Origin: an uncultured Acidobacteriaceae bacterium
GTDB taxonomy: Bacteria > Acidobacteriota > Terriglobia > Terriglobales > Acidobacteriaceae
Assembly: GCA_963720245.1 (NCBI GenBank)
Contig: CAVREU010000004.1
Location: forward strand, 404,469-468,468
Length of the DNA stretch: 64,000 nucleotides
Reading direction: 5' to 3'
This document shows, in pieces, positions 1-45,562 of this stretch. Each line of letters begins with the position of its first letter. The stretch's first letter is position 1. The notes below the pieces were generated by a model. That model saw only the letters and a list, made by a program, of their open reading frames with translations, did not search any database and was not told the origin of the DNA. The position numbers were made by a program, and so were the translations under genes.

Positions 1-611
1 CGGCAGCGGTCAGTTCGATCCAGCTCGACGTGCGCGATCGTGAAGAAGTCGAGAGCGCGATCGCCGGGCTTCCCGCGGAGTGGCAGGCCATTGACATTCT
101 GGTGAACAACGCCGGCCTCAGCCGCGGCCTGGACAAACTCCAGGAAGGCGATCCTGAAGATTGGGACGAAATGATCGACACCAACGTAAAAGGGTTGCTC
201 TATGTCACCCGCGCCATCGTTCCGGGCATGATCGCACACGGCGCCGGACACGTCGTCAATCTCGGCTCAACCGCCGGCGAGATCACCTATCCGAAAGGGG
301 CCGTTTATTGCGCCTCAAAGGCCGCGGAACGCGCCATCAACGATGGTTTGAGGCAAGACGTGCTGGGCACGCCGATCCGGGTGACCAGCGTCGATCCCGG
401 AATGGTAGAGACCGCATTCAGCGAAGTGCGCTTTCGTGGCGATGCCGCGCGGGCGGCCAAGGTATATGAGGGTGTTACGCCGCTAACGCCAGAAGACATC
501 GCCGACACGATCCTATGGGCAGTCACCCGGCCGGCGCATGTCAATATCGCCCGAATCGCGCTCACCACGATCGACCAGGCCAACTCGCTGCTCTTCAACC
601 GCAAGAACTAG
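1..611 (+). CDS. Short-chain dehydrogenase/reductase (YdfG-like), 5' end outside window
   Basis: NNAG motif, catalytic YxxxK (YCASK), DPGMVET segment typical of the YdfG subfamily; frame is open from the window edge. Confidence 0.9.
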   Translation, partial: AAVSSIQLDVRDREEVESAIAGLPAEWQAIDILVNNAGLSRGLDKLQEGDPEDWDEMIDTNVKGLLYVTRAIVPGMIAHGAGHVVNLGSTAGEITYPKGAVYCASKAAERAINDGLRQDVLGTPIRVTSVDPGMVETAFSEVRFRGDAARAAKVYEGVTPLTPEDIADTILWAVTRPAHVNIARIALTTIDQANSLLFNRKN

Positions 612-614
612 TTT

Positions 615-673
615 TCAGTCTTCAGTTGTCAGTTGCAACTTAAAATCCACGGCTTCTGATAACTGAGGACTGA
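615..673. repeat. REP-like imperfect palindrome built from 7-nt units, between convergent genes
   Basis: TCAGTCTTCAGTTGTCAG (615-632) pairs with CTGATAACTGAGGACTGA (656-673) with two G-U wobbles. Confidence 0.6.
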
Positions 674-689
674 TAACTGACCACTTGCT

Positions 690-929
690 CTAGTTGAACG
701 AAGTCAACTTGGCCTCGATATCGCTCAAAGCCGCCTGCAGCGCAGCGCGCCGGTGCGGGCTCGAGGTCCGCTCAGAGAGAATCCGCTCCCGCTGCAACTC
801 CAATGCCTGTTGGTCGCGCTTCCTCGCCAATTCGCTCGAGGCTTTGCTCTTCGCGCCCTGTGACTCTGGATGTTCCTCGTGAATTGACATCTGTTCCTCC
901 ACGGACTTGCTCTCCCAGCCTCTGGCCAT
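690..929 (-). CDS. Small hypothetical protein (79 aa, helical/coiled-coil)
   Basis: MARGWESKSVEEQ start; TAGCAT -10-like hexamer 6 nt before the ATG; fills the gap between flanking genes. Confidence 0.75.
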   Translation of the reverse strand: MARGWESKSVEEQMSIHEEHPESQGAKSKASSELARKRDQQALELQRERILSERTSSPHRRAALQAALSDIEAKLTSFN

Positions 930-1053
930 ACTTCTATGCTACTGCGAAAACGTTAACTTTCGCGAGTCTTCCTGCGCCGCTCTTGGACAACCGCCTCCAG
1001 GCTGCGCTATGCTGACGAGTTTGCTTTGAAGCGGGAAATCAGGAGAAACAAAA

Positions 1054-2067
1054 ATGAAGGGCTGGAGAATTTCATCCTTTGGCATTGACAACCTCGAGGC
1101 GTTCGAAGCGCCCATCCCCAGGCCGTCCGCCGGCCAGGTCGTCGTAAAGGTCCATGCGGCATCGCTGAACTACCGCGACCTGATGATGGTCAAAGGCTTC
1201 TACAACCCAAAGATGGCGCTGCCACGTATTCCCTGTTCCGATGGTGCTGGAGAAATCGTCGAGGTCGGCGCGAGAGTCACCGATTTCAAGCCCGGAGACC
1301 GCGTCGCCGGCATCTTCATGCAGCGTTGGATCGATGGCCCCCCTTCGGCCGCCAAGCAAAAAGCAGCGTTAGGCGGTGATGTCGATGGCATGCTCGCGGA
1401 ATATGTCCTTCTCGACGCGACTGGCGTCGTTCACCTGCCCGAACACCTCTCTTACGAAGAAGGCGCAACGCTGCCCTGCGCCGGCGTCACCGCCTGGAAC
1501 GCGATCGTGACCGCGGCCCACACCAAGCCTGGCGATACCGTGGTCATTCAAGGCACTGGCGGCGTCTCGATCTTCGCCCTCCAGTTCGCGAGGACGCTCG
1601 GCGCGCGGGTGCTGGGCACCTCCAGCAGCGACGAAAAGCTGGAACGCGCCAAGACCCTCGGCCTCGATGCCGGCTTGAATTACAAGGAAAACCCGGACTG
1701 GGCCGACTGGGTGCTCGCCCAGACCGGCAGCGAGGGCGCGGAGCTCATCGTCGAGGTCGGGGGCGCCGGCACTTTCGTGCAATCGCTCAAAGCCGTCCGC
1801 GTTGGAGGCACGATCGCGCAGATCGGCGTTCTCTCGCAGTCGAGCGAGCCGCTCCAGATCGCCCCCATTCTCCGCAAACAGGTTCGTGTTCAAGGTATCT
1901 TCGTCGGATCACGCGCTCACTTCCTGGAAATGAACCGGGCCATCTCGCTCAATGGATTGAAGCCCATCATCGACTGCGTCTTCCCCTTCGCCGAATCTCG
2001 CGCCGCCTTTCAACGGATGGAATCCGCCTCGCACTGCGGCAAAATTGTCATTCGGATCGCCGCTTAG
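1054..2067 (+). CDS. NAD(P)-dependent medium-chain dehydrogenase/reductase (zinc-type alcohol dehydrogenase-like)
   Basis: SLNYRD, PCSDGAGE, GTGGVS nucleotide-binding motif, C-terminal GKIVI; AGGAG SD upstream. Confidence 0.92.
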   Translation: MKGWRISSFGIDNLEAFEAPIPRPSAGQVVVKVHAASLNYRDLMMVKGFYNPKMALPRIPCSDGAGEIVEVGARVTDFKPGDRVAGIFMQRWIDGPPSAAKQKAALGGDVDGMLAEYVLLDATGVVHLPEHLSYEEGATLPCAGVTAWNAIVTAAHTKPGDTVVIQGTGGVSIFALQFARTLGARVLGTSSSDEKLERAKTLGLDAGLNYKENPDWADWVLAQTGSEGAELIVEVGGAGTFVQSLKAVRVGGTIAQIGVLSQSSEPLQIAPILRKQVRVQGIFVGSRAHFLEMNRAISLNGLKPIIDCVFPFAESRAAFQRMESASHCGKIVIRIAA

Positions 2068-2091
2068 GGGACGTTGGTATCGTAAGAGGCG

Positions 2092-2898
2092 ATGGCTTCC
2101 TTCACAGTCGGTCTTTGGCGCCTCGCCGGCGGTCTGGCGCTCGCCTCGGCCTTTCTATCGATCGGCTGTGCAGCCACTGCCCCAGTCTCCGGCTATCAGA
2201 TCGTCGCCAGGTTTCCGCACTCGACAGATAACTACACCGAAGGCTTCTTCTACCTCGACGGCCTGTTTTACGAAGGCACTGGCCTCAACGGACACTCTGC
2301 CTTGATGGCCATTCAGCCGGAGACCGGCAAGGTCCTCCAAAGGGTCGATCTCCCGGAGCAGTATTTTGGCGAGGGCATCGTCGACTGGGGGCCCAATCTG
2401 TATGAATGGACATGGCAATCGCACATCTGCTTCGTTTACGACCGCTTCAGCCTGCGGCTCATCAAGCAGTTCAGCTACACAGGCGAGGGTTGGGGAATGA
2501 CCCGCACCGCGAGCGAGATCATCACGAGCGACGGCACGGCGACCCTCAGATTTCGCGATCCCGCCACCTTCAAGGAAACCCGCCATCTCCTCGTGACGGA
2601 CGGCGGCAAACCGGTCAAGCAGCTCAACGAACTCGAATACATCAAGGGCCAGATCTACGCCAACATCTGGCACTCCAACCGCATCGCGCGGATCTCTCCA
2701 CGCGACGGCCACGTCATCGCCTGGATCGATCTCGCCGGTTTGCTGCCCGACAGCGAGAAGATCAACGGCGAATCGGTGCTGAACGGCATCGCTTACGACG
2801 CGAAACACGACCGGCTCTTCGTCACCGGAAAGCAGTGGCCAACGATCTTCGAGATCAGGACCGTCAATGGGCCTCCCGCGAAAACGGCAGCCCACTGA
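2092..2898 (+). CDS. Glutaminyl-peptide cyclotransferase (glutamine cyclotransferase, beta-propeller type), exported
   Basis: YTEG, EGTG, YFGEG, EGWG, LNELE, VLNGIAYD, FVTGKQW motifs; hydrophobic N-terminal signal. Confidence 0.92.
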   Translation: MASFTVGLWRLAGGLALASAFLSIGCAATAPVSGYQIVARFPHSTDNYTEGFFYLDGLFYEGTGLNGHSALMAIQPETGKVLQRVDLPEQYFGEGIVDWGPNLYEWTWQSHICFVYDRFSLRLIKQFSYTGEGWGMTRTASEIITSDGTATLRFRDPATFKETRHLLVTDGGKPVKQLNELEYIKGQIYANIWHSNRIARISPRDGHVIAWIDLAGLLPDSEKINGESVLNGIAYDAKHDRLFVTGKQWPTIFEIRTVNGPPAKTAAH

Positions 2899-2937
2899 GC
2901 TTGCGGCAATGTCGCGATTGGCGATGTACCCGGAGCG

Positions 2938-5450
2938 TCATTCGGTTCTAAGCGCTTCCATCGGCTCCAATCCAGCTGCCTTTCGCGCCGGCAGCCACGC
3001 AGCAAGCGCACCCACACCGAGGAGCAGCAGTGGCGCAGCGATCAGCGTCAGCGGATCGTACTGCGTCACGCCGAAGAGGAAGCTGTGCAGCAGGCGCGCG
3101 GTAAGCAGGCTGATGCCCACGCCGATCACGATACCTGTCACCAGCAGCGTACCCGCCCCGCGCAGCACCAGGGCGAGAATGTCCTCCCGCTGCGCGCCCA
3201 GCGCCAGCCGCAGGCCAAGTTCCCGTGAGCGAAGCGTGGTGATGTAAGTGAGCAGGCTATAAAGGCCGGCCAGAGCCACCAGCAACGCCAGAGTCCCGAG
3301 CGCCTCGAGCAGGCGGGCAGCGAGCAGTTGGTTGCCCATTGCGTCGTCCACGATCTGGTCCATGGTGCGAATGTTGCTTCCGGCGAGATCAGGGTTTAAC
3401 TCGCGCATCGCCCGGTTCAGGTCGGGGACCAGGCTGCGGGCATCGCGGCTGGAACGCAGCACCAGCTCAACATGCGCATGCAATGTGGGCTGATAAAAAC
3501 CGTCGGTCGGAAGCATCTGCGCGGCATTGATGTCGATCTCCGGCACCGAGTCTTCGGCGATGCCCTTCTGATGCAGATCGTCGACTACGCCGACAATCTT
3601 GAACTGGCGGGGCTTCTCCCCACTCTTGCCGGCCATGCCGAGGCTAAATTTGCTCACGTCCCCGTTCGTCGGCTCATAAGCTTGGCAAAGGCGCTGTTGA
3701 CGACCGCGGTCAGCGGCGAATCAGGAGTGTCCTGCGCATTGAAATACCGGCCTCGCTTCATATTGAAGCCCAGCACTTGCTGCAACTCCGGCCCTGCTGC
3801 CCGCATCGTCGCAGAAATGATATTGTTGGGCGCCTCGACCACGCGCGTGGCAAGGTCCTTTTTCTCGCCATTCTTGGCCGGCCCGTTGCCCAACGCCAAG
3901 AGCAATCGCATATCGAATCCATTATCCAATGGAACGATCGTGGTAATGGCCGCCGCCTGCACACCCGGAAGACTCTTGATCCGATCAAGCAGCGGCTTAT
4001 AGATGGCGTTATTCGTGTCCATCCCTTGATACTTGTAACCGGGCAGATCCGGCTCGATCACGAAGACATGGTCGGTGCGGAAGCCCAGGGGCACGTGGCG
4101 CAGCGCAAACACCGTCCGCAGAAGCAGCCCACAAGAAACCAGCATCGCGAGCGTCAGTGAAAGCTCGGCGACGACCAGGGTCCGCTGCAGCCGGTGTTGA
4201 TGGCGGCCGGTACCGGCTTGCGCGCCATCCTGGCGAAGCGCCTGCTCGACGGCGACCCTCGAACCCAACAAGGCCGGTACAACCCCGAAGAGCACCGCGC
4301 TCGAAACGCTCAGGAAAAAGAGCGCGGCGATTACGCGAAGATCGGGTTGGAGAGAGAGATTCAAACTGAACTGGGTGACCAAGCTGTGGCGAAAGAAGCG
4401 TAACGCCACCTGGGAGAGCGCTAGACCGACCACGCCTCCGGCCACGCTAAGTAACAGGCTTTCTGCGAGCGTTTGCCGCACCAGCCTCCAGCGACTTGCG
4501 CCCAGCGCCGACCGGACGGCCATCTCGCGCCGTCGCGCCGCGGTTCGCGCCAGCGTCAGGCAGGCGACGTTGGCGCAGGCGATCAGCCAGAGCACCGCCA
4601 CTGCTCCCAGCAGAGCCAAGAGCGCCGTCCGCTGGTCTTGGTCATTCAAACTGCGCCGATAGTCGATCGCCGAGACGTGCACTGGCGCCATGACCTTCTC
4701 GACAGGATCGGTATTGAGCGACGCCAAACCCTTCTGGATCGCGTTCATTTCCGCGGTCACAGCTGCGATAGATCTGCCTGCACGGCGGCGAGCGATCACG
4801 TCGAACGATGCGCCATCGCTGGCGCGGCGAATGTCTTTCGGCGCCGCCGCAGCCGGCAGCCAGACCTGCGCGGCAGACTCGCTTGCTGGAAAGACGAAGC
4901 TCCGCGGCATGACGCCGACGATCGTCACCTGCTTGTCGTCGATGCGAACCGTTTGCCCAAGGATTTTCGGATCGGCCCGGAACTGCGACCGCCATACCGC
5001 GTCGCTTAACACCGCAACCCGGTCCTTGCCCGGCTGCAGCTCTCCCTCGATAAAGGATCGCCCCAAAGCCGGCGCAACGCCGAGCATCGTAAAGAGGTTC
5101 GAACTCACTTGAACTGACTTAACCTTTTGCTCCGCGCCGGCCGACCGCAGGTAAGCCTCCCCGCTTTGGTAATAAGCGACATCGCTCAGCGTATGGGCGT
5201 ACCGCCACTCCAGGATGTCGGCGAGGAAAGACCATGATGCGTTGCCCTTGGCGTCGGTGGGCTTGAGGCGCACCAATTCCCCCGCGTTGCTATAAGGCAG
5301 CGGACGAAAGAGCGTGCCTTCCAGCACTGTGAACATCGCAGCGTTGGCGCCGATACCGAGCGCGAGCACGACGATCACGCTTAGAGCAAAGCCACGCGCG
5401 TGGCGCATCTGGCGCAGAGCGTAGCGGATGTCCTGGGAAAACGAGCGCAT
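2938..5450 (-). CDS. ADOP-type (MacB/FtsX duplicated) ABC permease, split by a 1-base deletion near 3677
   Basis: QDIRYALRQ..GFAL..LALGIGANAAMF start; RRREMAVRSALGASR and RSRELGLRLALGA repeats; adding one T (AAG CTT TAT GAG) joins ORFs 3654-5450 and 2938-3657 as KLYEPTNGDVSKFSLG. Confidence 0.88.
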
Positions 5451-5473
5451 GGTTTATTCCTCTCCACCAGTTT

Positions 5474-5489
5474 TGCACCTCTTCGGCCA
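5474..5489 (-). promoter_or_regulatory. Putative sigma54 (-24/-12) promoter of the ADOP permease
   Basis: Minus strand TGGCCGAAGAGGTGCA has GG-N10-GC spacing; predicted start near 5463 leaves a 13-nt leader containing GAGGA. Confidence 0.5.
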
Positions 5490-5503
5490 CTCGTTCCGGC
5501 CTG

Positions 5504-5516
5504 CAAATAACTGATA
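5504..5516 (-). promoter_or_regulatory. Putative IHF binding site
   Basis: Minus strand TATCAGTTATTTG matches WATCAR-N4-TTR; a second match AATCAATGGCTTA lies at 5623-5635. Confidence 0.5.
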
Positions 5517-5551
5517 TGGATGGTCACCTGATCGGAAGGGCGTCGCACGAT

Positions 5552-5586
5552 GGCCAAAAGCGGCCAACTATCGTCCAAAAATGGAC
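5552..5586. promoter_or_regulatory. Tandem palindromic sites (candidate enhancer/UAS)
   Basis: GGCCAAAAGCGGCC (5552-5565) and GTCCAAAAATGGAC (5573-5586), 21 bp apart. Confidence 0.45.
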
Positions 5587-5825
5587 AGCTTTTTGGGGGG
5601 CGCAGCCGCCCAAAAGCTCTCTTAAGCCATTGATTATGTTCTACTCATGAAGCCAATGCGGGAAATCACGACCAGACCAGCGACTTTATTTCTTCGTTTC
5701 TGGTTGCAAGCACCACCCCTCTCCGCCTAAGTTAGTCCAAGGAAAAGATGAGTCCGGAACTGTTCTAATAAGTAAGGTCAGCGCCGCCAACGTCTTGAAT
5801 GCCTCCCCATAGAACTCAACTCGTG

Positions 5826-8066
5826 ATGCATCGAGCTACCGCTCTGGCCGCTCCGGTGCTGCTGGTCATCGCCGGTTGCGGCGGCGTTGTCTCCAAATAT
5901 GTGCCCAGCCCGGTCAACGCCGTCTTTTCCGTTACGCCATCGGCGCGGGCGATTAATACCAACGGCCAACTCCGGATGACAGCGGTCACCTCATCCGGCA
6001 CGCCCGCGGACGTGAAGTGGAGCATCGTTGGCGGCGACAACGATCCGGCCCTCGGCGAGGGTGCGATTGACGGCAACGGATACTACACCCCTCCCGCGGC
6101 CCTCACCCACGACTCGATTCAGGTTGAGATTCAGGCCCGCCTGCACAACGACCCGGCCACGACGGCGACTGAGGTCATCGAAGTCCGCCCGAGCTTTCTG
6201 CAGCCGCTCACGCCGGAAAACTCAACTCTGGCTGCCGGCGGCAGCGTAGAAGTGACGGCGCAACTGGCCGAGGTCGGCGGCGGCGCGGTGAATTGGCAGT
6301 TGGCTGCCGCTCCGACAGGCAGAAGGCGGTTGGGCAGCGCCTACGGGACATTCAGCCAGGAAAGCTGCCAGCACAATCAGCGGGACTATACCGTCTGCAG
6401 CGCCGTCTACACCGCGCCGGCCGCGATCCCCGCGTCCAGCAAAGAGGTCTATGTCATCGCCACGGTGGGTGGCGCCGAGGCGACGGCCTCAACGGCCACC
6501 AGCCGATTGCCGCTGCATATCTTGCTAAGCGCCTCAGGCACTTCGAGCACGCCGCTCACCAACCAATCCGTTCAGACCTCCCTGGTGCAGTTGGGCTCGT
6601 CCGGGGGAAACAATAATGACGCAGACACCTCAGACAACGCATCGGGCGGATACATCAACGATTGTTGCGGCGGAACACTGGGTGCGCTGCTCCGCGACGA
6701 GAATGGCGGCCAGTACATCCTGAGCAATAACCACGTGCTTGCCGAGTCGGACCAGGCGAAGATCGGCGATACCATCGTGCAGCCGGCGCTGATCGACCGC
6801 AACTGCGACCAGAATGCGGGACGCCCGGTGGCCTCGCTCCGCTATGTCGTTCCGCTCGCAACCAGCCAGACGAATGTCGACGCAGCGCTGGCCGAGGTAA
6901 GCGCTGGAACGGTCGACCCTACCGGGGCGATCTTGCAGTTCGGTTCGCCGGGCGCTGGCGTCAACGGTGCTATCGGCGCGGCCTCACCTGCCGCTGGCCT
7001 TGGCGAGGCGCTGACGCCGGAGTTGTTCGCGCCCGGCTCCGCCCCGCTGATGGTGGCAAAGAGCGGCCGCACGACCGGCCTGACCTGCTCCACCATCGAC
7101 GCCATCGACCTTAGCGTCGAGGTCGACTACTACAAAGACTGCGCCGAAACCCAACCCTACTACCGCAAGACCTTTTCCGGTCAACTCGGCATCTCCGGCG
7201 AGGGATTCTCCGATAGCGGCGATTCGGGAGCGCTGGTCGTCGACGCCGCCAATGCCGAGCCTCTAGGCCTATATTTCGCCGGCGGCACTGACGATCACGG
7301 TGGCGGCCTTAGTGTCGCGACCCCGATTCAGGACGTCCTCACGGCACTCGACACCGAGGCCGTCCACCAGTTCAGCATCGTCGGCGGAGAGGAGCATCCG
7401 GTGTCCTGCCTCAACTATGGCGCGAGGTCGGCGAACGCTCTTGCCGTGACCGACGCATTCCGAAGGAAGGCCGAGGCAGCCATCCGCAGGAACGCCGCCA
7501 CGATCATCAACCCCGCGCTTGGCATCCTCGAACTCGCTCCCGGCGCCAGCAGCGATTCGCCTGGCGATCCGGCGGTTCTCGTCTACGTCGATAAAGCGAA
7601 GGAAAACGTCACCGCCCCGCAAACCGTCGGGGGAATCCGTACGGTTGTAGTTCCCACCGACCAGCCCAGCCTCAATGGAGGCGTCGCGCCAAAATCAAAT
7701 GATCTTGCCGACGGCATTCATTTGCCTGCCGAGGTCCTCGAGTCGGCGCGTCAGGTCCAGCATAGTTATGCGGCGCAGCTCATGACCGACCCCGCCATCT
7801 TCGGCGTCGGCGTCACCCAGAGCCGCGACAATCCGCGCGAGGCAGCTTTGCTGGTGTTGGTCGATCTGTCCCGCACTCCGCGTTCGATGCCGACCGTAGT
7901 CGGCGGACTCCGCACCCGCTACTTGTCGACGCACCGCTTTCACGTCACCCGCTCGAGGTATGCCGGAGCGCCTCACCCGTCCAGCTGCCGGCTCCGCTCG
8001 CTTTCCCTGGGGGCGGCGCCCAAAACCTTCGATCCGCAAAAGCCCCTCCCTCTTGCGCTCCCCTGA
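5826..8066 (+). CDS. Putative lipoprotein with Ig-like N-terminal region, chymotrypsin-fold (S1-like) serine protease domain and two C-terminal repeats
   Basis: Lipobox-like IAGC; triad motifs SNNHV, NVDAA and GDSGA; AKSGRTTG motif; start could be 5799-5826. Confidence 0.75.
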   Translation: MHRATALAAPVLLVIAGCGGVVSKYVPSPVNAVFSVTPSARAINTNGQLRMTAVTSSGTPADVKWSIVGGDNDPALGEGAIDGNGYYTPPAALTHDSIQVEIQARLHNDPATTATEVIEVRPSFLQPLTPENSTLAAGGSVEVTAQLAEVGGGAVNWQLAAAPTGRRRLGSAYGTFSQESCQHNQRDYTVCSAVYTAPAAIPASSKEVYVIATVGGAEATASTATSRLPLHILLSASGTSSTPLTNQSVQTSLVQLGSSGGNNNDADTSDNASGGYINDCCGGTLGALLRDENGGQYILSNNHVLAESDQAKIGDTIVQPALIDRNCDQNAGRPVASLRYVVPLATSQTNVDAALAEVSAGTVDPTGAILQFGSPGAGVNGAIGAASPAAGLGEALTPELFAPGSAPLMVAKSGRTTGLTCSTIDAIDLSVEVDYYKDCAETQPYYRKTFSGQLGISGEGFSDSGDSGALVVDAANAEPLGLYFAGGTDDHGGGLSVATPIQDVLTALDTEAVHQFSIVGGEEHPVSCLNYGARSANALAVTDAFRRKAEAAIRRNAATIINPALGILELAPGASSDSPGDPAVLVYVDKAKENVTAPQTVGGIRTVVVPTDQPSLNGGVAPKSNDLADGIHLPAEVLESARQVQHSYAAQLMTDPAIFGVGVTQSRDNPREAALLVLVDLSRTPRSMPTVVGGLRTRYLSTHRFHVTRSRYAGAPHPSSCRLRSLSLGAAPKTFDPQKPLPLALP

Positions 8067-38597: not shown

Positions 38598-39290
38598 TTA
38601 GGCGCGGACGGAGATGCCGGTGAACGACATCACGGCAAGCCCGCGCACCGGCTGGCCAAAGACTCGCGCCGGCTCAAAGACGCTAAAAAGCAACAGGTTC
38701 TCCAGCGCAGAACGCGTATTGGCATCGTTCGGTCCAGAGACGATGTGGTAGTCGTAAACCCGCCCTCCGCCGTTGATATAGGCCTCGACGATTACGGGAT
38801 TATCGCGACCGCCGATCGGAACCGCCTCAGGTTCGATCTGGGAGTAGAGAAAATGAGGATTGGAAGCCATCCCCAGCGGAACATCCCGCGCCGCCAACGG
38901 CTCTGGACGGGCAAACATCCCGATCAGCAGCGCCACCGTGCCCAGCAGCAGGACGGTGCTCGCAAAACCGGCCGAGGCCTGCAATAAGAATGGGCCGAAT
39001 GTATTCTGCCAACGCACTTTCAAAGCCGGCAAAAGATTCTCAGGCGTCCGGGCGCGCTCCTTGGAGATAGCCACGCGGAGCCGCAGGGCAAGATCGTCGG
39101 GCGCCTTCAGCGGGGCCAGCGACGCGAGCGCGGCCTGGGTCGAACGCAGACCCTCAAACTCCGTCGTGCAAGCCTCGCAATCGCGCAAATGCGCCGCGAT
39201 TCGCTGCATGGCCACACCGGTCACCGCGCCATCGAGATAGCTGGAGAACTGCGCCTTGATCCTCGTGCAGACAACCTCGCCGCCGTTCAT
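38598..39290 (-). CDS. Zinc-binding anti-sigma factor (zf-HC2) with TM helix and TonB-C-like periplasmic domain
   Basis: YLDG..HLRDCEAC ZAS motif; single TM; overlaps the sigma-factor stop codon (ATGA). Confidence 0.85.
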   Translation of the reverse strand: MNGGEVVCTRIKAQFSSYLDGAVTGVAMQRIAAHLRDCEACTTEFEGLRSTQAALASLAPLKAPDDLALRLRVAISKERARTPENLLPALKVRWQNTFGPFLLQASAGFASTVLLLGTVALLIGMFARPEPLAARDVPLGMASNPHFLYSQIEPEAVPIGGRDNPVIVEAYINGGGRVYDYHIVSGPNDANTRSALENLLLFSVFEPARVFGQPVRGLAVMSFTGISVRA

Positions 39291-40021
39291 CGCGCCTCCT
39301 CTACCGCAAGACCGTCGAAACCGAGCACTCCGCTCTCGGCCGCTCGACCTGCCGATGCCGCGACCCGCGCCGGGGGCTTCGATGCCGCCTCGGCGAAGGG
39401 CGTCAGCAGCGTCTTCAACTGCACCCGGCCCCGCAGCAGCCTGGATTTGACCGTTCCGAGGTTCACGTTCAGAATCTCGGCAATCTCCTCGTAGGTAAAT
39501 CCCTCAATGTCCCGCAGCACCACAACCGTGCGAAAGGGCTCTGAAACCAGCCGAAGCTGGGCTTCGACGTGTTGGCGAATCTGCTGTTGCGCAGCAGCGT
39601 CAAAGGGCGAAAGCTGACCGTCAACCAGAGTCTCTTTGTAGCTCAGCGGCTGGCCATCGCTCGATTGCTCCGACTCCGCCTCAATGGTCACCTCGCGGCG
39701 CTTATGGCGAGACCACCACCGGCGGCCGTTCAGCGCCTCATGCAGGGCGATGCGGTAGATCCAGGTGCGCAGGCTGGCGTCGCCATGAAATCCGCCTATG
39801 CCGCGAAAGATCTTGATGAATATCTCTTGGGTAAGATCAGCGGCGTCGGCGGGATCGGGGATCGTGCGCGCGACCAGGCTGTAGAGAGGCTGGTGATAGG
39901 TGGCGATGAGCCATGCGAAAGCCTCCTCAGAGCCGGCCTTCAGCTCCGAGACAATGGCGGCTTCCTCCGCTCTGACGACTGCAATTCCTGCCAGGTTTCC
40001 CAACGCGATTCCCGCTTGCAT
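39287..40021 (-). CDS. ECF RNA polymerase sigma factor (RpoE/SigW-like)
   Basis: DAADLTQEIF, LRTWIYRIA (region 2); VVVLRDIEGFTYEEIAEILNVNLGTVKSRLLRGR (region 4). Confidence 0.95.
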   Translation of the reverse strand: MQAGIALGNLAGIAVVRAEEAAIVSELKAGSEEAFAWLIATYHQPLYSLVARTIPDPADAADLTQEIFIKIFRGIGGFHGDASLRTWIYRIALHEALNGRRWWSRHKRREVTIEAESEQSSDGQPLSYKETLVDGQLSPFDAAAQQQIRQHVEAQLRLVSEPFRTVVVLRDIEGFTYEEIAEILNVNLGTVKSRLLRGRVQLKTLLTPFAEAASKPPARVAASAGRAAESGVLGFDGLAVEEAR

Positions 40022-40290
40022 GAAGAAACTCCCCTTACAGTAACAGGACAGCAAGGCGCCTGTCGCCGGCGCGGATCATCGATGGTTTCCAACTCACCAA
40101 AACTACGCCGCCGGCGGCCGAGTGTCTCGCTCACTCTATTTCCTTAGACACCGGAGACAAGCGATTTAGTTCCCCGAAAATTGGACACTCATTCATGCCT
40201 CTCTACCCCGGCGCCACAAATCCGGTTGGCCAGCCGCCGAAGTTTGACGAACCGCGCCGACTCAACGAGAATAAGAAGGTTGGTCATTGT

Positions 40291-40522: not shown

Positions 40523-43500
40523 TCAGACCAGTCTCGCAGCGGAAATCAACTCCGGCGGGATCGGCCGGCCGGTGTAATAGCCCTGAACGTCGTCGCATCC
40601 CGCGCCCCTGAGAAAGTTCATCTGGTCCCGCGACTCGACGCCCTCCGCAACCACCGATACTTTGAGCTGGTGAGAGAGGGCGATGATTGCGTTGGTCACC
40701 GCCGCGCTGTTCTCGCTTGTCGAACAGTCCTGAATGAAACAGCGGTCGATCTTCAGCCGATTCACCGAGAATCGCAGCAGATACGACATGCTGGAATAGC
40801 CGGTGCCGAAATCGTCGATCGCGATGCGGACCCCGAGGTTGCGCAGTCCCTCAAAAAAGGACTGCGCCTTGGGAGCGTCATTCATGAGCAGGCTCTCGGT
40901 GATTTCGATCTCCAGGCAACTGGGGTCCAGGCGGTTCACCTGCAACGCGTCCTCGATGACCTGCAGCAGGTCCGGCTGATCGAGCTGGCGCGCTGAAACG
41001 TTCACCGCCATGACCAACTGCGGTCCAAACTGTTCATGAAGTTTCGTCAACTGCCGGCAGGCAGTGTGGATGACCCAGGCGCCGATCGGAAGAATGAGCC
41101 CGGTCTTTTCCGCCAGGGGGATGAAGCGTGCCGGAGACACCACCCCGAATCGTTTGCTCGTCCACCGCAAGAGTGCCTCGAAGCCCACCATCTCGCCATC
41201 GGCGAGGGAGAACTGGGGCTGATAGTGGAGCTGCAGTTCGTTTTCGTTGAGCGCATCGCGCAGGGCGGCCTCCATGCCCCGCTGCTCCACCGCCAGCGCG
41301 GCGATTTCCTGGCTGAATACCTGATAGGAATGCTGACCGGAGGCTTTCGCGTGGTACATCGCGGTGTCCGCGTTTCGCATCAGCATGTCCGCGTCGGCTC
41401 CTCCGTCGGGGAAGATGCAGACACCGATGCTTGCGCTAACGTTGATGGGCTCGCGTTCGCCTAACACTAACGGCGGGCTCAAGGCGGACAAGAGTTTTTC
41501 CGCCACCCGCAAGGCGTCGGAAGAAGACTTGAGGTCGGTTGCCAATACGACGAATTCGTCACCGCCCATGCGCGCCACGGTGTCGACCGCCCGGACTGCC
41601 AAACTCAGCCGCCGTGCGGTCTCGGCCAGCACCATGTCCCCAACGTGGTGACCGAGCGAATCGTTGATGCGCTTGAAATTGTTCAAGTCAATCATCAACA
41701 GCGCACACGGAGCGGAGTAACGTTTCGATCGCGAAATCATCATGTTGAGCCGGTCAGCCAGCAGTTGGCGGGTAGGCAATCCGGTCAGCTTGTCGTGATG
41801 CGCAAGATGGGAGATGTATTCTTCGCGCCGCTTGCGTTCGGAGATATCGTACGCAGTAATCATGAAGGCGGTGGGCTGGCCGGATTTGTCCTTAAGCGGT
41901 GTGACCGTCACCTCGACAATGGTCTTCGACCCTCCGTTACGGACAAAGATCCATTCCCGTCCCCGGCCGGAAAGGTTTTCCCCGGAGAAGATAGCTTCCT
42001 CAAGGGAAACGGTGCACCCGCGTTCCTCTGAGAGCTGTCGGGCAAGCTCTTTGACCTCCGGCGCGTCGTAGATGGTTAACGGCGTCTTTCTGCCGATGAG
42101 TTCCTCGCGGGTATACCAGAGCAATCTCTCGGCAGCGGGATTTACGGCACTGATTACGTAATCCTTGCCGGCGACGATAATGGCAGCCGGTGAGTTCTCG
42201 ATCATCGATTCGGTAAAAGCCCTGCTCCGTTCCAGGGCAATCTGGTTGCTCATCGCCGCTCTCGTCGATTTGAGGGCCAGCTGGCTTTTGACCCGCGCCC
42301 TCACCGCCGCGGGCGAGATTGGCTTGGTGATGTAATCGACCGCACCCGCTTCCAGCGCCCTGGCTTCGTCCTCCACTCCCAGAGACCCGGTGACGACCAG
42401 GACGGGCAGGTCCCAGTTCTCGTGGTCCGCTTTCAGCTGCCGGCAAACCTCATATCCGTCGATGCCGGGCATCATGACATCGAGCAGCACCACATCGGGC
42501 ATCGAGGTGGCGGCGATCTCCAAAGCCGACTGGCCGTCGGTTGCCGAGAGCACTTCGTAGTTGCCGCCCAGCGCTTCAACCAGCAGGTCGATGTTCGAGG
42601 GCTCGTCGTCGACAACCAGGATGCGCGAGCGTCGCTTGACCGACCCGGGTCCGGCGGAGCTCGGCGCCGGTAGGGCCGGTCGACGCGCGCCCGGTGGTGT
42701 TGTGCCCATGGTGTTTACAGCAGCGATGGCCGGACCAAGGGCCCCTTCCATCGCTTCGAGCAAGGCGTCGAGATTTTCCCGTTGCCCGAGCCGCAGCGCG
42801 CTTTCCAGAGACGATGCGGCCTCAGCCAGATCCGTGGCCTCCAGTGTCGCGGCAACACCCTTCAGCGAGTGCGCCAGCCGCTCGGCGCCTTCGACCTGTC
42901 CGGCGGCAAGGTTCTTTCGCAGCCTGGAGACCGCATCGGAATATTTGTCCCGGAAGCCGAACATCATCTTGAGAAGCAGGCCGGTCTTGCCGTTACAACG
43001 TTCCAAAGCGGCCTGGATGTCGAATGGTGGCAATTCTTGAGGAATGCCATCGTGAGGCTGCACAGGCCGAACCTCCAATCCTGGTTCGATGTAATTCTGA
43101 TTCTGAATTGCTTCTTTCGGTTGGTTCGCCGGCATCCATCGCAGCAGGGCATCGGTCAACCGGTTGGGGTGGATTGGCTTGGTGACATGGTCATTCATTC
43201 CCGCTTCGAGGCTTCTCTCGCGGTCCCCGCTCATCGCATGGGCGGTCATGGCGAGGATAGGCAGATCGCGATAATGGTCATCGGCGCGAATCGCCCGGGT
43301 CGCCGTCAGCCCGTCCATCACCGGCATCTGGATGTCCATGAGGACCAGGTCGAAGGGCTCCGCGGTGACCCGGTCGACGCCCTCTCGGCCGTTTACGGCG
43401 ATGGTCACGGCTATGCCAAGATCTCCAAGAAGTTCGGCTGCCAGATCGCGGTTGATCTCGTTGTCCTCGACCAGCAGGACGCGGCGTCCCTTTAACGTCG

Positions 43501-45562
43501 TCGCGGCCTCAGCCGCGGGGGCAGGATCTTCTGCCGCGCCTGACGACTTCACTCCGAAGATGTTCGCGATCGTATCGATGAGGACCGATGCATTGACCGG
43601 CTTGGTCAGGAATCCGTCCGGCACAAACTCCTGCGCCCTGCCCAGGAATTCTTCCCTCTCAAAGGCCGTGACCATCAGGATCGCCGGCGTGTGGGAGAGA
43701 TTTGGATCGCCCTTGATACGCCGACCGGTCTCGATCCCGTCCAGGCCTGGCATTCGCCAGTCCATCAGCACCAGTTCGATCGGCTCTCCGGCAACCGAAG
43801 CAGCCGACAGGCTATTCAACGCCTGTTCTCCGGAGGAAACCGCGTTCACCACAAAGCCGTTCGCAACCAGCATGGAGGTCAGGACGTCTCTTGCGCTTTC
43901 ATCGTCCTCGACGACCATGAGCGACTTTCTCCACAGTTCGCTCAGCCGTGCCCGGGCCTGCACCTGGGGTGCATCGGCGGCGATGCCGAAGTTCGCGCTG
44001 AAGCGGAAGGTGCTTCCTTTACCCAGTTCGCTCTCGACGGAGATGCCGCCGCCCATCAGCTCGCAGAGCTGCTTGCAGATCGCCAGGCCGAGTCCCGTTC
44101 CCGCGTAGCGGCGAGTGATCGACGTGTCCGCCTGGGTAAAGGCCGCAAAGAGATGCGAGACCTGGTCCTCAGTCATGCCTACGCCGGAATCTCGAACGGA
44201 GAAGCAGAGCCGCACCGCGCCCTCCGTCGATGTCTCCACGGCTACGCGGACAAGCACATCTCCTCGATCGGTGAACTTGATGGCGTTGGCCACCAGATTG
44301 ATCAGAATTTGCCCCAGTCTCAGCGGGTCGCCGATCAGGTAGGGAGGAACGTTGGGCACGATCGAAAATTCGAGCCTTATGCCCTTTTGCTGCGCCTTTT
44401 CGCCGACCATGTCGAGCACATGGTCCAACGCCGGCCCCAGCGAGAAGACAACGTGTTCCAGCTCCAGCTTGCCCGCTTCCACCTTGGAAAAATCGAGGAT
44501 GTCGTTGATGATCGTGAGCAACGACTTGCCGGCATTGCTGATCTTGCTCAGATAACCCGCTTGCTTGGGATTTGGATCGGCGCGTAGCGCCAGATGAGTC
44601 ATCCCGAGGATCGCATTCATTGGCGTCCGTATCTCATGGCTCATATTGGCCAGAAACTCCGACTTGACCCGGCTCGCCTCTTCGGCGACGCTCCTCGCCC
44701 GCCTTGCCGCGTCCTCCTGCTTTCGCTCGGTAATATCCCGGACCAGGCCGACAAATAATCCTTGGCTCTGATGAGAGACCTCGGAAATGATGAGCTCCAT
44801 CGGGAACGTCCGGGCCGCCTTGGTCAGACCCTCCAGTTCCCGGGCCGCCCCGGTGACCTTCCTCGGGCCCGTCGACTGATAATGCGCCAGGTGGTCGTCA
44901 TGTTTGCTGCGGTCGCCTGCGACCATCAATACTTTGATGTTTTGACCGATCATCTCCGAAGCTTCGTACTCGAACATCCGCACCCCGGCGGGGTTGACAG
45001 AAAATATGGTCCCTGAAGCGTCGAAGGTGATGACCCCATCGACAACGTTATGCAGGATCGCGCGCAGTCGCGCCTCAGAGTCCCGGAACGCTTCCTGGCT
45101 GGTGATTCTTTTCACCAGGAGCTCTTGAATCTGCGGCAAACACAAAGGCAGCGCCACCGCAGTGATCACCGAGGCGCAGGCGGTAATCAGCTGCATACCA
45201 CCCCGTAGCCAGTAGAGCGGATACCAAAGCACGACGACGTCCAGCAACCGGGTGAATCCGCATGTGAGAATGAACGCGCCGAAGAGTACCAGAATGCCTT
45301 TGAACTGAAAATACCTCCGGATCCCCACCACCATGACAGCCAGCCTCACCCCTATGGCGAGGGAGCAAACGAAGATCACCGAATCCGAGACGACGTGCAG
45401 CCACAGTAGCCACGGGTTCCACTCAGAGTTCACGCCGCGCGGCTGATAGCCGGTGGACAACAGGTTGATTGACAGCCAAGGATACAGGCCAAGAGCGACC
45501 GGCAGCACCAGAATTGCGGCGGTAACAGGCAAGCGCTTGCCCATGATTGCGGTGACTTGCAT
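40523..45562 (-). CDS. Hybrid sensor kinase / c-di-GMP enzyme: ethylene-receptor-like TM domain-PAS-HisKA-HATPase-REC-REC-Hpt-REC-PAS-GGDEF-EAL (1679 aa)
   Basis: MSHEIRTP H-box; three REC aspartates (LMDWRMP, LMDIQMP, LLDVMMP); AHSLKG Hpt; RAVD I-site plus GGDEF; EAL, EITES, DDFGTGYSS, EGVE. Confidence 0.93.
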   Translation of the reverse strand: MQVTAIMGKRLPVTAAILVLPVALGLYPWLSINLLSTGYQPRGVNSEWNPWLLWLHVVSDSVIFVCSLAIGVRLAVMVVGIRRYFQFKGILVLFGAFILTCGFTRLLDVVVLWYPLYWLRGGMQLITACASVITAVALPLCLPQIQELLVKRITSQEAFRDSEARLRAILHNVVDGVITFDASGTIFSVNPAGVRMFEYEASEMIGQNIKVLMVAGDRSKHDDHLAHYQSTGPRKVTGAARELEGLTKAARTFPMELIISEVSHQSQGLFVGLVRDITERKQEDAARRARSVAEEASRVKSEFLANMSHEIRTPMNAILGMTHLALRADPNPKQAGYLSKISNAGKSLLTIINDILDFSKVEAGKLELEHVVFSLGPALDHVLDMVGEKAQQKGIRLEFSIVPNVPPYLIGDPLRLGQILINLVANAIKFTDRGDVLVRVAVETSTEGAVRLCFSVRDSGVGMTEDQVSHLFAAFTQADTSITRRYAGTGLGLAICKQLCELMGGGISVESELGKGSTFRFSANFGIAADAPQVQARARLSELWRKSLMVVEDDESARDVLTSMLVANGFVVNAVSSGEQALNSLSAASVAGEPIELVLMDWRMPGLDGIETGRRIKGDPNLSHTPAILMVTAFEREEFLGRAQEFVPDGFLTKPVNASVLIDTIANIFGVKSSGAAEDPAPAAEAATTLKGRRVLLVEDNEINRDLAAELLGDLGIAVTIAVNGREGVDRVTAEPFDLVLMDIQMPVMDGLTATRAIRADDHYRDLPILAMTAHAMSGDRERSLEAGMNDHVTKPIHPNRLTDALLRWMPANQPKEAIQNQNYIEPGLEVRPVQPHDGIPQELPPFDIQAALERCNGKTGLLLKMMFGFRDKYSDAVSRLRKNLAAGQVEGAERLAHSLKGVAATLEATDLAEAASSLESALRLGQRENLDALLEAMEGALGPAIAAVNTMGTTPPGARRPALPAPSSAGPGSVKRRSRILVVDDEPSNIDLLVEALGGNYEVLSATDGQSALEIAATSMPDVVLLDVMMPGIDGYEVCRQLKADHENWDLPVLVVTGSLGVEDEARALEAGAVDYITKPISPAAVRARVKSQLALKSTRAAMSNQIALERSRAFTESMIENSPAAIIVAGKDYVISAVNPAAERLLWYTREELIGRKTPLTIYDAPEVKELARQLSEERGCTVSLEEAIFSGENLSGRGREWIFVRNGGSKTIVEVTVTPLKDKSGQPTAFMITAYDISERKRREEYISHLAHHDKLTGLPTRQLLADRLNMMISRSKRYSAPCALLMIDLNNFKRINDSLGHHVGDMVLAETARRLSLAVRAVDTVARMGGDEFVVLATDLKSSSDALRVAEKLLSALSPPLVLGEREPINVSASIGVCIFPDGGADADMLMRNADTAMYHAKASGQHSYQVFSQEIAALAVEQRGMEAALRDALNENELQLHYQPQFSLADGEMVGFEALLRWTSKRFGVVSPARFIPLAEKTGLILPIGAWVIHTACRQLTKLHEQFGPQLVMAVNVSARQLDQPDLLQVIEDALQVNRLDPSCLEIEITESLLMNDAPKAQSFFEGLRNLGVRIAIDDFGTGYSSMSYLLRFSVNRLKIDRCFIQDCSTSENSAAVTNAIIALSHQLKVSVVAEGVESRDQMNFLRGAGCDDVQGYYTGRPIPPELISAARLV

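What the first reader, a model, noticed from the sequence alone, without database searches (positions are those of the whole stretch)
40523..45562. One-polypeptide phosphorelay that ends in a c-di-GMP synthase/phosphodiesterase
Seen: one intact 1679-aa frame with HisKA (SHEIRTP), HATPase, two REC domains, an Hpt (AHSLKG), a third REC, PAS, GGDEF (with RxxD I-site) and EAL, all with catalytic residues intact. Established: kinase-REC-Hpt hybrids and REC-PAS-GGDEF-EAL outputs are normally separate proteins. Inference: a full His-Asp-His-Asp relay and its c-di-GMP output are fused, giving a pathway insulated from cross-talk, perhaps by fusion of a hybrid-kinase gene to its downstream regulator through the Pro/Ala/Arg linker after the Hpt.
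Basis: partly seen in the sequence, partly recalled or inferred. Interest (0 to 1): 0.72.

Follow-up and report, generated by a model that had tools for sequence, protein, structure and literature searches.

The report
Sensor kinase relay fused to c-di-GMP enzymes
This soil-bacterium gene really does encode a sensor, a complete four-step phosphorelay and enzymes that make and break c-di-GMP in one 1679-residue protein, but relatives carry the same design both fused and as two adjacent genes, so it is a tidy, untested example of a known design, not a new kind of system.

Summary
Window 40523-45562 (-) is one intact 1679-aa frame: membrane ETR1_N-like domain, FixL-like PAS, HisKA, HATPase, REC1, REC2, Hpt, a 28-aa Ala/Pro linker, REC3, PAS, GGDEF and EAL. 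All phospho-acceptor and catalytic motifs are present.

The single frame is not an assembly artefact. Independent soil-metagenome contigs cross the linker without indels, and four relatives share the order.

The fusion idea is supported in kind. A metagenome relative (L081) has the same system as two genes 11 nt apart, and their end and start align with the linker. The kinase-core tree and the receiver tree both group these five systems. Outgroup-rooted parsimony makes the fused state old and L081 a later fission, so a recent stop-codon loss here is unlikely.

The architecture is not unusual in this family:
- About 80 of the 120 nearest relatives have Hpt-REC-output in one chain.
- At least six other distant protein clusters, with different sensors, show the same HK...Hpt-REC-GGDEF-EAL order by Pfam.
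- A 2015 census already lists "one-protein phosphorelays".
- Anabaena CdgK/CdgS is a characterised two-gene version.

Insulation from cross-talk remains untested. Verdict: real, ordinary in kind, uncharacterised in detail.

The parts
40523..45562 (-). Whole gene, 1679 aa (P0001). Apparently monocistronic: 248 nt separate it from the divergent GH38 gene upstream, and 468 nt separate it from the ECF sigma gene downstream.
45122..45409 (-). ETR1_N-like three-helix membrane domain (res 52-147), preceded by one more hydrophobic segment (about res 11-36). It keeps 4 of the 7 ETR1 ethylene-binding residues (D25, I35, I62, C65 equivalents); Y32 is Ser, P36 is Gly and the copper-ligand H69 is Arg.
44732..45070 (-). 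PAS1 (res 165-277), FixL-type heme-PAS-like. The proximal-His motif DRSKHDDHLAHY aligns with FixL DRSRHDSYISRY.
44471..44665 (-). HisKA dimerisation/phospho-acceptor domain (res 300-364), H309.
43997..44332 (-). HATPase_c catalytic domain (res 411-522) with N, G1 and G2 boxes.
43577..43921 (-). REC1 (about res 548-662), D601. By analogy with CdgK REC1 it may be off the main relay path.
43145..43480 (-). REC2 (res 695-806), D743. Likely the first aspartate of the relay.
42740..42955 (-). Hpt domain (res 870-941), H898. The AF2 model is a helical bundle with pLDDT above 90.
42629..42712 (-). Ala/Pro/Ser/Arg-rich linker (res 951-978). It aligns with the C-terminal tail of the split kinase P0087 followed by the N-terminal head of the split regulator P0005. 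AF2 pLDDT is below 50. It is 42% identical to P0002, against 71-89% in the flanking domains.
42278..42622 (-). REC3 (about res 981-1095), D1028. Terminal receiver of the relay.
41828..42199 (-). PAS2 (res 1122-1245).
41333..41803 (-). GGDEF domain (res 1254-1410): RAVD I-site at 1324 and GGDEF at 1333.
40562..41269 (-). EAL domain (res 1432-1667) with EAL, EITE, DDFGTGYSS, KIDR and AEGVE motifs.

Best explanation
The gene encodes a membrane-anchored, probably dimeric, multi-step sensor of an Acidobacteriaceae-like soil bacterium.

Shown:
- All the domains lie in one chain.
- Every phospho-acceptor and catalytic motif is present.
- The single frame is real in this organism and in relatives.
- The kinase core and the third receiver have diverged together as a pair, whether fused or split.

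Inferred:
- A signal is read mainly by the FixL-like PAS1, possibly a haem-bound gas or redox state. The ETR1_N-like membrane domain has lost the copper-ligand histidine, so it probably anchors the protein or senses something other than ethylene.
- That signal sets autophosphorylation of H309.
- The phosphoryl group then passes to D743 (REC2), to H898 (Hpt) and to D1028 (REC3), across a flexible linker of about 25 residues or between the two chains of a dimer. This route follows Anabaena CdgK/CdgS, where REC1 is dispensable.
- Phospho-REC3 shifts the balance between c-di-GMP synthesis (GGDEF) and hydrolysis (EAL) in a MucR/MorA-like tandem.
- The fused form is one state of a module that switches repeatedly between one gene and two adjacent genes. 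Here the fused state is probably inherited, not newly made.
For: - Intact ORF and domains with motifs.
- Linker covered without indels by contigs from four soil runs. These runs may include the window's own source sample. One 922-nt contig has 7 substitutions, 5 of them synonymous, including P956 in the linker.
- P0002 (80% identical), P0003 and P0004 have the same order.
- The split pair P0087 + P0005 in L081 aligns with the junction.
- The kinase-core tree groups P0001-4 with P0087 (SH-aLRT 97). The receiver tree groups the REC3 domains of P0001-4 with the REC of P0005 (98).
- The same genome holds split modules with 4-nt overlaps, HK-REC-REC-Hpt followed by REC-GGDEF or by a REC + phosphatase-like output protein (output domain read by eye).
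- Proteobacterial genomes hold adjacent HK-REC-REC-Hpt and REC-REC-GGDEF-EAL genes.
- CdgK/CdgS shows experimentally the route HK to REC2 to Hpt to REC-GGDEF, with REC1 dispensable.
- PAS1 matches FixL haem domains at E 3e-24 with the proximal His aligned.
- GGDEF-EAL matches MucR at E 2e-125 and MorA at 3e-116.
- AF2 gives folded Hpt and REC3 joined by a disordered linker.
- No Hpt or response-regulator gene lies next to it.
Against: - There is no biochemical or expression evidence for any step.
- AF2 pTM of 0.50 gives no confident Hpt-REC3 docking.
- REC1 and REC2 both keep all receiver residues, so the choice of REC2 rests on analogy alone.
- Both enzyme domains look active, so the sign of the output is unknown.
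- In PAS1 the FixL R206 position is His, and haem binding is unproven.
- The role of the degenerate ETR1_N domain is unknown, and the closest relative P0002 lacks it altogether.
- The genome holds many other kinases and receivers that could feed or drain the relay.
Confidence: 0.65

Rival explanations
1. The relay is open, not insulated. The Hpt domain also serves free response regulators, or REC3 is also phosphorylated by other kinases. On this reading the fusion raises local concentration but does not close the circuit.
For: The genome has many paralogous HK-REC-REC-Hpt kinases and REC proteins whose receivers are 48-50% identical to REC3. Split and fused forms interconvert often, with at least 7 changes on the tree, so the covalent link is not essential. 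AF2 shows no fixed Hpt-REC3 contact.
Against: The kinase core and REC3 co-diverge as a pair. A short linker, median 20 aa, is kept in 82 fused relatives.
Confidence: 0.2
2. REC3 and the GGDEF-EAL part are not the relay's end point. REC3 acts as a phosphate sink, or the GGDEF domain is only a GTP or c-di-GMP sensing regulator of a constitutive EAL phosphodiesterase. The real output would then go elsewhere.
For: Many GGDEF-EAL tandems have one regulatory domain (general knowledge of the family). The best NCBIfam partial matches for the C-terminus are phosphodiesterases such as DibA and DosP, all below their cut-offs. An RxxD I-site is present.
Against: The GGDEF motif and the metal and substrate residues are intact, and the closest solved relatives, MucR and MorA, are bifunctional tandems (bifunctionality from my own knowledge). 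Relatives with the same REC3 carry GGDEF alone as the only output.
Confidence: 0.1
3. The long frame is an assembly or sequencing artefact that joins two genes.
For: The genome looks like a metagenome-derived assembly (7 contigs, 95.5% complete), and a split relative exists.
Against: The substitutions seen are mostly synonymous in this frame. P0002, P0003 and P0004 from other samples have the same single frame. The split form differs by both a stop and a frame change.
Confidence: 0.02
4. It is a bacterial ethylene receptor that couples ethylene to c-di-GMP.
For: Pfam ETR1_N scores 85 bits. Of the 54 relatives with this domain, 50 or more keep each of the D25, Y32, C65 and H69 equivalents, and all keep Ile or Leu at position 35.
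Against: This protein has Y32S, P36G and H69R, so the copper-ligand His is lost. It keeps 4 of the 7 residues required in AtETR1 and all present in AzoEtr1.
Confidence: 0.04

Closest known systems
Anabaena sp. PCC 7120 CdgK/CdgS (PMC9927289)
   Same: The relay module is HisKA-HATPase-REC1-REC2-Hpt followed by a REC-GGDEF regulator. Experiments show the route His to Asp (REC2) to His (Hpt) to Asp (regulator), with REC1 dispensable. The output is c-di-GMP.
   Different: CdgK/CdgS is two co-transcribed genes, not one chain. Its sensors are CHASE, PAS and GAF. Its output is GGDEF only, without PAS2 or EAL. It is cyanobacterial, and sequence orthology was not tested here.
Unorthodox (tripartite) kinases: BarA, ArcB, TorS, BvgS, EvgS
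   Same: HisKA-HATPase-REC-Hpt in one chain. NCBIfam gives partial matches to BarA (564 bits), TorS and ArcB.
   Different: All matches are below the equivalog cut-offs. Those kinases pass the phosphate to a separate DNA-binding regulator. Here there is a second receiver before the Hpt, and the terminal receiver plus enzymes are attached.
'One-protein phosphorelay' classes HKRR1HPtRR2 and HKRR1RR2RR3HPt in the Salvado et al. 2015 census (PMC4558063)
   Same: The domain composition is one HK, three RR and one HPt in a single protein. The census lists 33 such proteins in 28 of 7,609 species, and 982 with two RR.
   Different: The census gives composition only. It records no output domains and no experiments.
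Myxococcus xanthus SgmT (PMC3509222)
   Same: A hybrid histidine kinase with a C-terminal GGDEF domain in the same chain.
   Different: SgmT has no Hpt and no second receiver, and its GGDEF domain acts as a c-di-GMP receptor rather than the relay output (title and abstract; details from my own knowledge). Its partner is the DNA-binding regulator DigR.
Pseudomonas aeruginosa MucR and MorA GGDEF-EAL tandems (PDB 5m3c, 4rnh)
   Same: The GGDEF-EAL tandem aligns end to end (E 2e-125 and 3e-116) with all motifs shared.
   Different: Those proteins have membrane or PAS inputs and no two-component relay in the chain.
FixL and DosP haem-PAS oxygen sensors (PDB 8js5, 1d06, 9bgv)
   Same: PAS1 aligns over about 125 residues at E 3e-24, including the proximal His. 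FixL is also a PAS-kinase, and DosP is a haem-PAS-GGDEF-EAL protein.
   Different: Haem binding is not shown here. The FixL R206 position is His. FixL is a plain kinase with a separate FixJ.
Ethylene receptors AtETR1, SynEtr1 and AzoEtr1 (PMC11819568)
   Same: An N-terminal three-helix ETR1_N fold family followed by a kinase.
   Different: Only 4 of the 7 binding residues remain, and the copper-ligand His is replaced by Arg.

Membership tests
Hybrid/unorthodox histidine kinase (HisKA + HATPase_c + REC + Hpt) | HisKA H-box with the phospho-acceptor His | tested here: met
   PF00512 scores 73 bits; SHEIRTP with H309, invariant in alignment A1.
Hybrid/unorthodox histidine kinase (HisKA + HATPase_c + REC + Hpt) | ATP-binding N, G1 and G2 boxes | tested here: met
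   PF02518 scores 101 bits; NLVANAIKF, DSGVGM and GTGLGL are present.
Hybrid/unorthodox histidine kinase (HisKA + HATPase_c + REC + Hpt) | Receiver with the acidic pair, phospho-Asp, Thr/Ser and Lys | tested here: met
   All three REC domains keep them: D601/K654, D743/T773/K795 and D1028/T1058/K1080.
Hybrid/unorthodox histidine kinase (HisKA + HATPase_c + REC + Hpt) | Hpt four-helix bundle with the conserved His | tested here: met
   PF01627 scores 44 bits; H898 is invariant; AF2 gives a helical bundle with pLDDT above 90.
Hybrid/unorthodox histidine kinase (HisKA + HATPase_c + REC + Hpt) | Autophosphorylation and His-Asp-His-Asp transfer | not testable with these tools
   This needs a [gamma-32P]ATP assay.
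BarA / TorS / ArcB equivalogs (NCBIfam) | Whole-protein score above the curated cut-off | tested here: not met
   BarA 564 against 890, TorS 471 against 676 and ArcB 416 against 838.
One-protein phosphorelay (HK-RR-HPt-RR in one chain) | All four phosphotransfer domains in one polypeptide, in relay order | tested here: met
   Domain order. The single frame is supported.
Active diguanylate cyclase (GGDEF) | GG[D/E]EF active-site motif with upstream metal and GTP residues | tested here: met
   GGDEF at 1333; D1292, K1297, N1300 and D1309; PF00990 scores 150 bits.
Active diguanylate cyclase (GGDEF) | RxxD inhibitory site five residues before GGDEF | tested here: met
   RAVD 1324-1327 followed by TVARM and then GGDEF.
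Active diguanylate cyclase (GGDEF) | c-di-GMP synthesis from GTP | not testable with these tools
   This needs an enzyme assay.
Active EAL phosphodiesterase | EAL motif, loop 6 DFG(T/A)GYSS, and catalytic Glu, Asp and Lys residues | tested here: met
   EALLRW 1462, N in VNVS 1520, EITE 1553, DDFGTGYSS 1583, KIDR 1604 and AEGVE 1639. The domain aligns with the MucR EAL throughout.
Ethylene receptor (ETR1-type ethylene-binding domain) | The seven residues required for ethylene binding in AtETR1 (D25, Y32, I35, P36, I62, C65, H69) | tested here: not met
   The protein has D, S, I, G, I, C, R, so 4 of 7, with His69 replaced by Arg. The criterion comes from PMC11819568.
FixL-type haem PAS | Sequence similarity over the whole haem-PAS domain, with the proximal His conserved | tested here: met
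   phmmer E 2.8e-24 to 8js5 and 3.6e-24 to 1d06; the His aligns.
FixL-type haem PAS | Haem binding and gas-dependent kinase control | not testable with these tools
   This needs spectroscopy. The FixL R206 position is His here.
CdgK/CdgS-type c-di-GMP phosphorelay | HK-REC1-REC2-Hpt module paired with a REC-GGDEF output | tested here: met
   The domain order is the same. The two-gene layout of CdgK/CdgS is not shared.
CdgK/CdgS-type c-di-GMP phosphorelay | Orthology to CdgK/CdgS | not tested
   No sequence comparison with the Anabaena proteins was made.

The most novel reading that the evidence does not exclude
The tethered Hpt-REC3 pair forms a truly closed circuit that couples a haem-PAS gas or redox signal to c-di-GMP turnover through four phosphotransfer steps. 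REC1 would act as a built-in sink that shapes the response. The natural fused (P0001-4) and split (P0087 + P0005) orthologues would then be a ready-made pair for measuring what covalent linkage does to specificity and kinetics in a phosphorelay.
Probability: 0.25. Interest if true: 0.5.

Novelty: new member of a known kind. Interest (0 to 1): 0.33.

Why it matters
Multi-step phosphorelays are usually studied as separate proteins. A chain that holds every step plus its enzymatic output, together with a close relative that has the same system cut into two genes at the same point, allows a direct comparison. One can ask whether fusion changes insulation, speed or noise. It also shows that soil Acidobacteria route a FixL-like sensor into c-di-GMP control. 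Beyond that, it is a routine annotation: a multi-domain sensor kinase / diguanylate cyclase / phosphodiesterase.

Tried and rejected
- Assembly artefact or lost stop: rejected by contigs across the linker and by relatives.
- Internal restart producing a free regulator: the only in-frame Met in the linker (M953) has no Shine-Dalgarno-like sequence before it, and the split kinase tail also has a Met there.
- Ethylene receptor: rejected on the binding residues.
- Equivalog of BarA, TorS, ArcB, DibA or DosP: all below the curated cut-offs.
- Operon partners: the neighbours are GH38, ECF sigma/anti-sigma and an aldo-keto reductase. There is no Hpt or regulator gene. The promoter and terminator scan was no better than shuffles.
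- Orthologue in related species: none among 200 family and 150 class species genomes. In the same-genus genome G129 the best matches to the kinase part and the GGDEF-EAL part are separate genes at unlinked places, and the locus is not syntenic.
- Phylum-wide genome search failed twice.
- Direction of change: the five-member clade is an unresolved polytomy. Parsimony rooted on proteobacterial split pairs favours an old fusion, but the hit list is biased towards long, fused proteins.
- AF2 of Hpt-linker-REC3 gave no confident inter-domain contact.
- Literature searches found no characterised protein with this full order.
Full report
**1. Observation**

Window 40523..45562 (-) is a single ATG-to-stop frame of 1679 aa (P0001). 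Pfam places these domains in order, all above the gathering scores:
- ETR1_N 52-147
- PAS 165-277
- HisKA 300-364
- HATPase_c 411-522
- three receiver domains (about 548-662, 695-806 and 981-1095)
- Hpt 870-941
- PAS 1122-1245
- GGDEF 1254-1410
- EAL 1432-1667

- H309 lies in SHEIRTP and H898 in AHSLKG.
- The receiver aspartates are D601, D743 and D1028.
- RAVD lies five residues before GGDEF 1333.
- EALLRW 1462 and DDFGTGYSS 1583 are present.
- The N, G1 and G2 boxes and the remaining EAL catalytic residues are also there.

That end has four hydrophobic segments, three of which form an ETR1_N-like domain, followed by a first PAS domain.

**2. Is the single frame real?**

The linker between Hpt and REC3 (res 951-978, window 42629-42712) is the only place where two genes could have been joined by mistake. 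Logan contigs from four soil-metagenome runs cover it:
- 42410-42694 with 0 differences
- 42373-42687 with 0 differences
- 42579-43500 with 7 substitutions
None has an insertion or deletion. These runs may include the sample the window was assembled from, so they are not fully independent of the assembly.

Five of the 7 substitutions are synonymous in this frame, including one inside the linker. This is what selection on a translated frame would give.

Three proteins from other samples have the same order without a break: P0002 (80% identical, 1803 aa), P0003 (2083 aa) and P0004 (2081 aa).

An AF2 model of Hpt-linker-REC3, built on a 20-sequence alignment, gives two well-folded domains (pLDDT about 90 or higher) joined by a disordered stretch (pLDDT below 50, res 957-975). 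There is no confident relative placement (pTM 0.50).

**3. Relation to two-gene systems**

A JGI metagenome contig (L081) carries the same system as two genes:
- P0087, with ETR1_N, PAS, HisKA, HATPase, REC, REC and Hpt (1465 aa).
- P0005, 11 nt later and in another frame, behind a GAGAGG ribosome-binding-like sequence. It has REC, three PAS, GGDEF and EAL (1140 aa).

The tail of P0087 (…ALGPAVAAAASLEMSPAEISR*) aligns with P0001 …ALGPAIAAVNTMGTTPPGARR. The head of P0005 (…APTAAPAPAPARVLIVDDEP) aligns with P0001 PALPAPSSAGPGSVKRRSRILVVDDEP. The linker therefore consists of a kinase tail followed by a regulator head.

Two trees agree:
- On the kinase core (HisKA to Hpt, 118 rows), P0001-4 and P0087 form one clade (SH-aLRT 97).
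- On the receivers (95 rows), the REC3 domains of P0001-4 and the REC of P0005 form one clade (98).

Kinase and terminal receiver have therefore diverged together as a pair. This is the best comparative evidence available here that REC3 is the cognate acceptor of this Hpt.

Split modules of the same design are common:
- The window's own genome has HK-REC-REC-Hpt genes overlapping by 4 nt with a REC-GGDEF gene (C2) and with a gene for a REC protein whose output looks like a phosphatase by eye (C6).
- Five proteobacterial genomes have HK-REC-REC-Hpt next to REC-REC-GGDEF-EAL.

**4. How unusual is the fused form?**

It is not unusual in this family. Domain mapping of the 120 best hits, out of 5.8 billion proteins, gives these groups:
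- about 55 have HK-REC-REC-Hpt-REC followed by a second kinase
- 18 have …Hpt-REC-GGDEF
- 4 have …Hpt-REC-PAS-GGDEF-EAL
- about 30 stop after Hpt

In 82 fused relatives the Hpt-REC linker is short (median 20 aa), rich in Ala, Pro and Ser, and poorly conserved.

An exhaustive HMMER scan of 1.84 billion cluster representatives, using residues 860-1679, returned P0001 as its own representative. Among the other 148 best hits:
- 73 are REC…GGDEF-EAL proteins
- 62 are other GGDEF-EAL proteins
- 13 carry a kinase and GGDEF-EAL in one chain

Six of those 13 were checked with Pfam. All are HisKA-HATPase-REC(-REC)-Hpt-REC-(PAS)-GGDEF-EAL behind other sensors: NIT-HAMP-PAS, CHASE8-HAMP or HAMP. The same end-to-end design therefore exists in several distant lineages.

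By contrast, close orthologues are rare in reference genomes. There is none in 200 species of the family or in 150 of the class. In the same-genus genome the best matches to the kinase part and the GGDEF-EAL part are separate genes at unlinked places, and there is no synteny beyond the GH38 gene.

**5. Direction of change**

The tree was rooted on the proteobacterial split systems. Fitch parsimony then makes the ancestor of the 98- and 104-row clades fused and needs 7 changes of state. On that reading L081 is most simply a later fission, and the P0001 fusion is inherited, not a recent stop-codon loss.

This is provisional, for two reasons. The five-member clade is a polytomy. The hit list also favours long proteins that match a fused query.

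**6. Sensors**

In the ETR1_N domain, 50 or more of the 54 relatives that have it keep each of the equivalents of AtETR1 D25, Y32, C65 and H69. All seven residues are needed for ethylene binding and are present in the characterised bacterial receptor AzoEtr1. This protein is therefore not filed as an ethylene receptor. The nearest relative, P0002, has replaced the membrane domain with soluble PAS domains.

PAS1 matches FixL haem domains (8js5 at E 2.8e-24, 1d06 at 3.6e-24) and DosP, with the proximal His aligned. Haem-based gas or redox sensing is therefore the most likely input. It is unproven.

**7. Output**

Residues 1105-1679 align end to end with the P. aeruginosa MucR and MorA GGDEF-EAL tandems (E 1.8e-125 and 2.6e-116), and every catalytic motif is kept. 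Both activities are plausible. The net sign cannot be read from sequence.

**8. Mechanism proposed**

The route is signal at PAS1, then H309~P, D743 (REC2), H898 (Hpt) and D1028 (REC3), ending in a shift of the DGC/PDE balance.

The choice of REC2 follows Anabaena CdgK/CdgS. In that system the same HK-REC1-REC2-Hpt module feeds a separate REC-GGDEF protein, and REC1 is dispensable (PMC9927289).

The shown parts are the domains, the motifs, the single frame and the co-divergence of kinase and receiver. Every transfer step, the input and the sign of the output are inferred.

**9. Comparison with what is known**

A census of two-component proteins already draws the 'one-protein phosphorelay'. It counts 982 HK-RR-HPt-RR proteins and 33 with three receivers (PMC4558063). 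Fusion and fission of such genes is an established theme.

No paper in the searched library characterises a protein with this full order. The finding is therefore a new, uncharacterised member of a known kind.

Its practical value lies in the natural fused and split orthologues, which allow a test of what tethering does to a relay.

**10. Organism**

The nearest named homologues are from Acidobacteriaceae. The neighbouring genes fit that group: a CarboxypepD_reg-type outer-membrane barrel, GH38 and an ECF sigma/anti-sigma pair. The taxon was not verified independently.

Noticed in passing
window 45122-45409 (-), and relatives P0004-P0119: Most relatives with the ETR1_N domain keep the ETR1 ethylene- and copper-binding residues: 50 or more of 54 keep each of D25, Y32, C65 and H69, all keep Ile or Leu at 35, and P36 is usually Phe. 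They form a large, mostly acidobacterial family of putative ethylene-receptor-like kinases. The window's protein is one of a few that lost Y32 and H69.
   Followed up: partly
window 44732-45070 (-): PAS1 is strongly FixL-like (E 3e-24 to solved FixL haem domains, proximal His aligned), which suggests a haem-based gas sensor placed before the kinase.
   Followed up: partly
L001:7914-13235 and about 55 database relatives (for example P0011 and P0016): The commonest relatives have ETR1_N-PAS-HK-REC-REC-Hpt-REC followed by a second HisKA-HATPase. That is a full relay feeding a second kinase in the same chain. No function is known.
   Followed up: no
own genome, outside the window: C6:102620-107964 and C2:821334-824806: There are two split copies of the same module. 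An HK-REC-REC-Hpt gene overlaps by 4 nt (ATGA) a gene for a REC protein with a phosphatase-like output (read by eye) on C6, and a REC-GGDEF gene on C2.
   Followed up: partly
own genome contig C5 (86 kb): about 380-6323 and 71173-76978: The two ends of this small contig carry an inverted duplication of several genes. It includes two copies of a 688-aa PAS-GGDEF-EAL gene that gave identical search scores (49% identical to the C-terminus of P0001). This could be a plasmid-like element or an assembly repeat.
   Followed up: no
L095 (same-genus genome G129, C1:2903000-2919000): The GH38 mannosidase gene is conserved (78% identical), but none of the genes on the other side of it in the window (the sensor gene, the ECF sigma pair, the aldo-keto reductase, the outer-membrane barrel) is found within the 12 kb upstream. 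The sensor gene therefore sits at a synteny break.
   Followed up: partly
L081:1070-3256: Just upstream of the split kinase/regulator pair, the metagenome contig has a GGDEF-EAL gene followed by a small BLUF (blue-light) gene. This is a second c-di-GMP module in the same neighbourhood.
   Followed up: no
window 38598-40054 (-): An ECF sigma factor gene overlaps by 4 nt a zf-HC2 anti-sigma gene, 468 nt downstream of the sensor gene. No link to the sensor was found.
   Followed up: no
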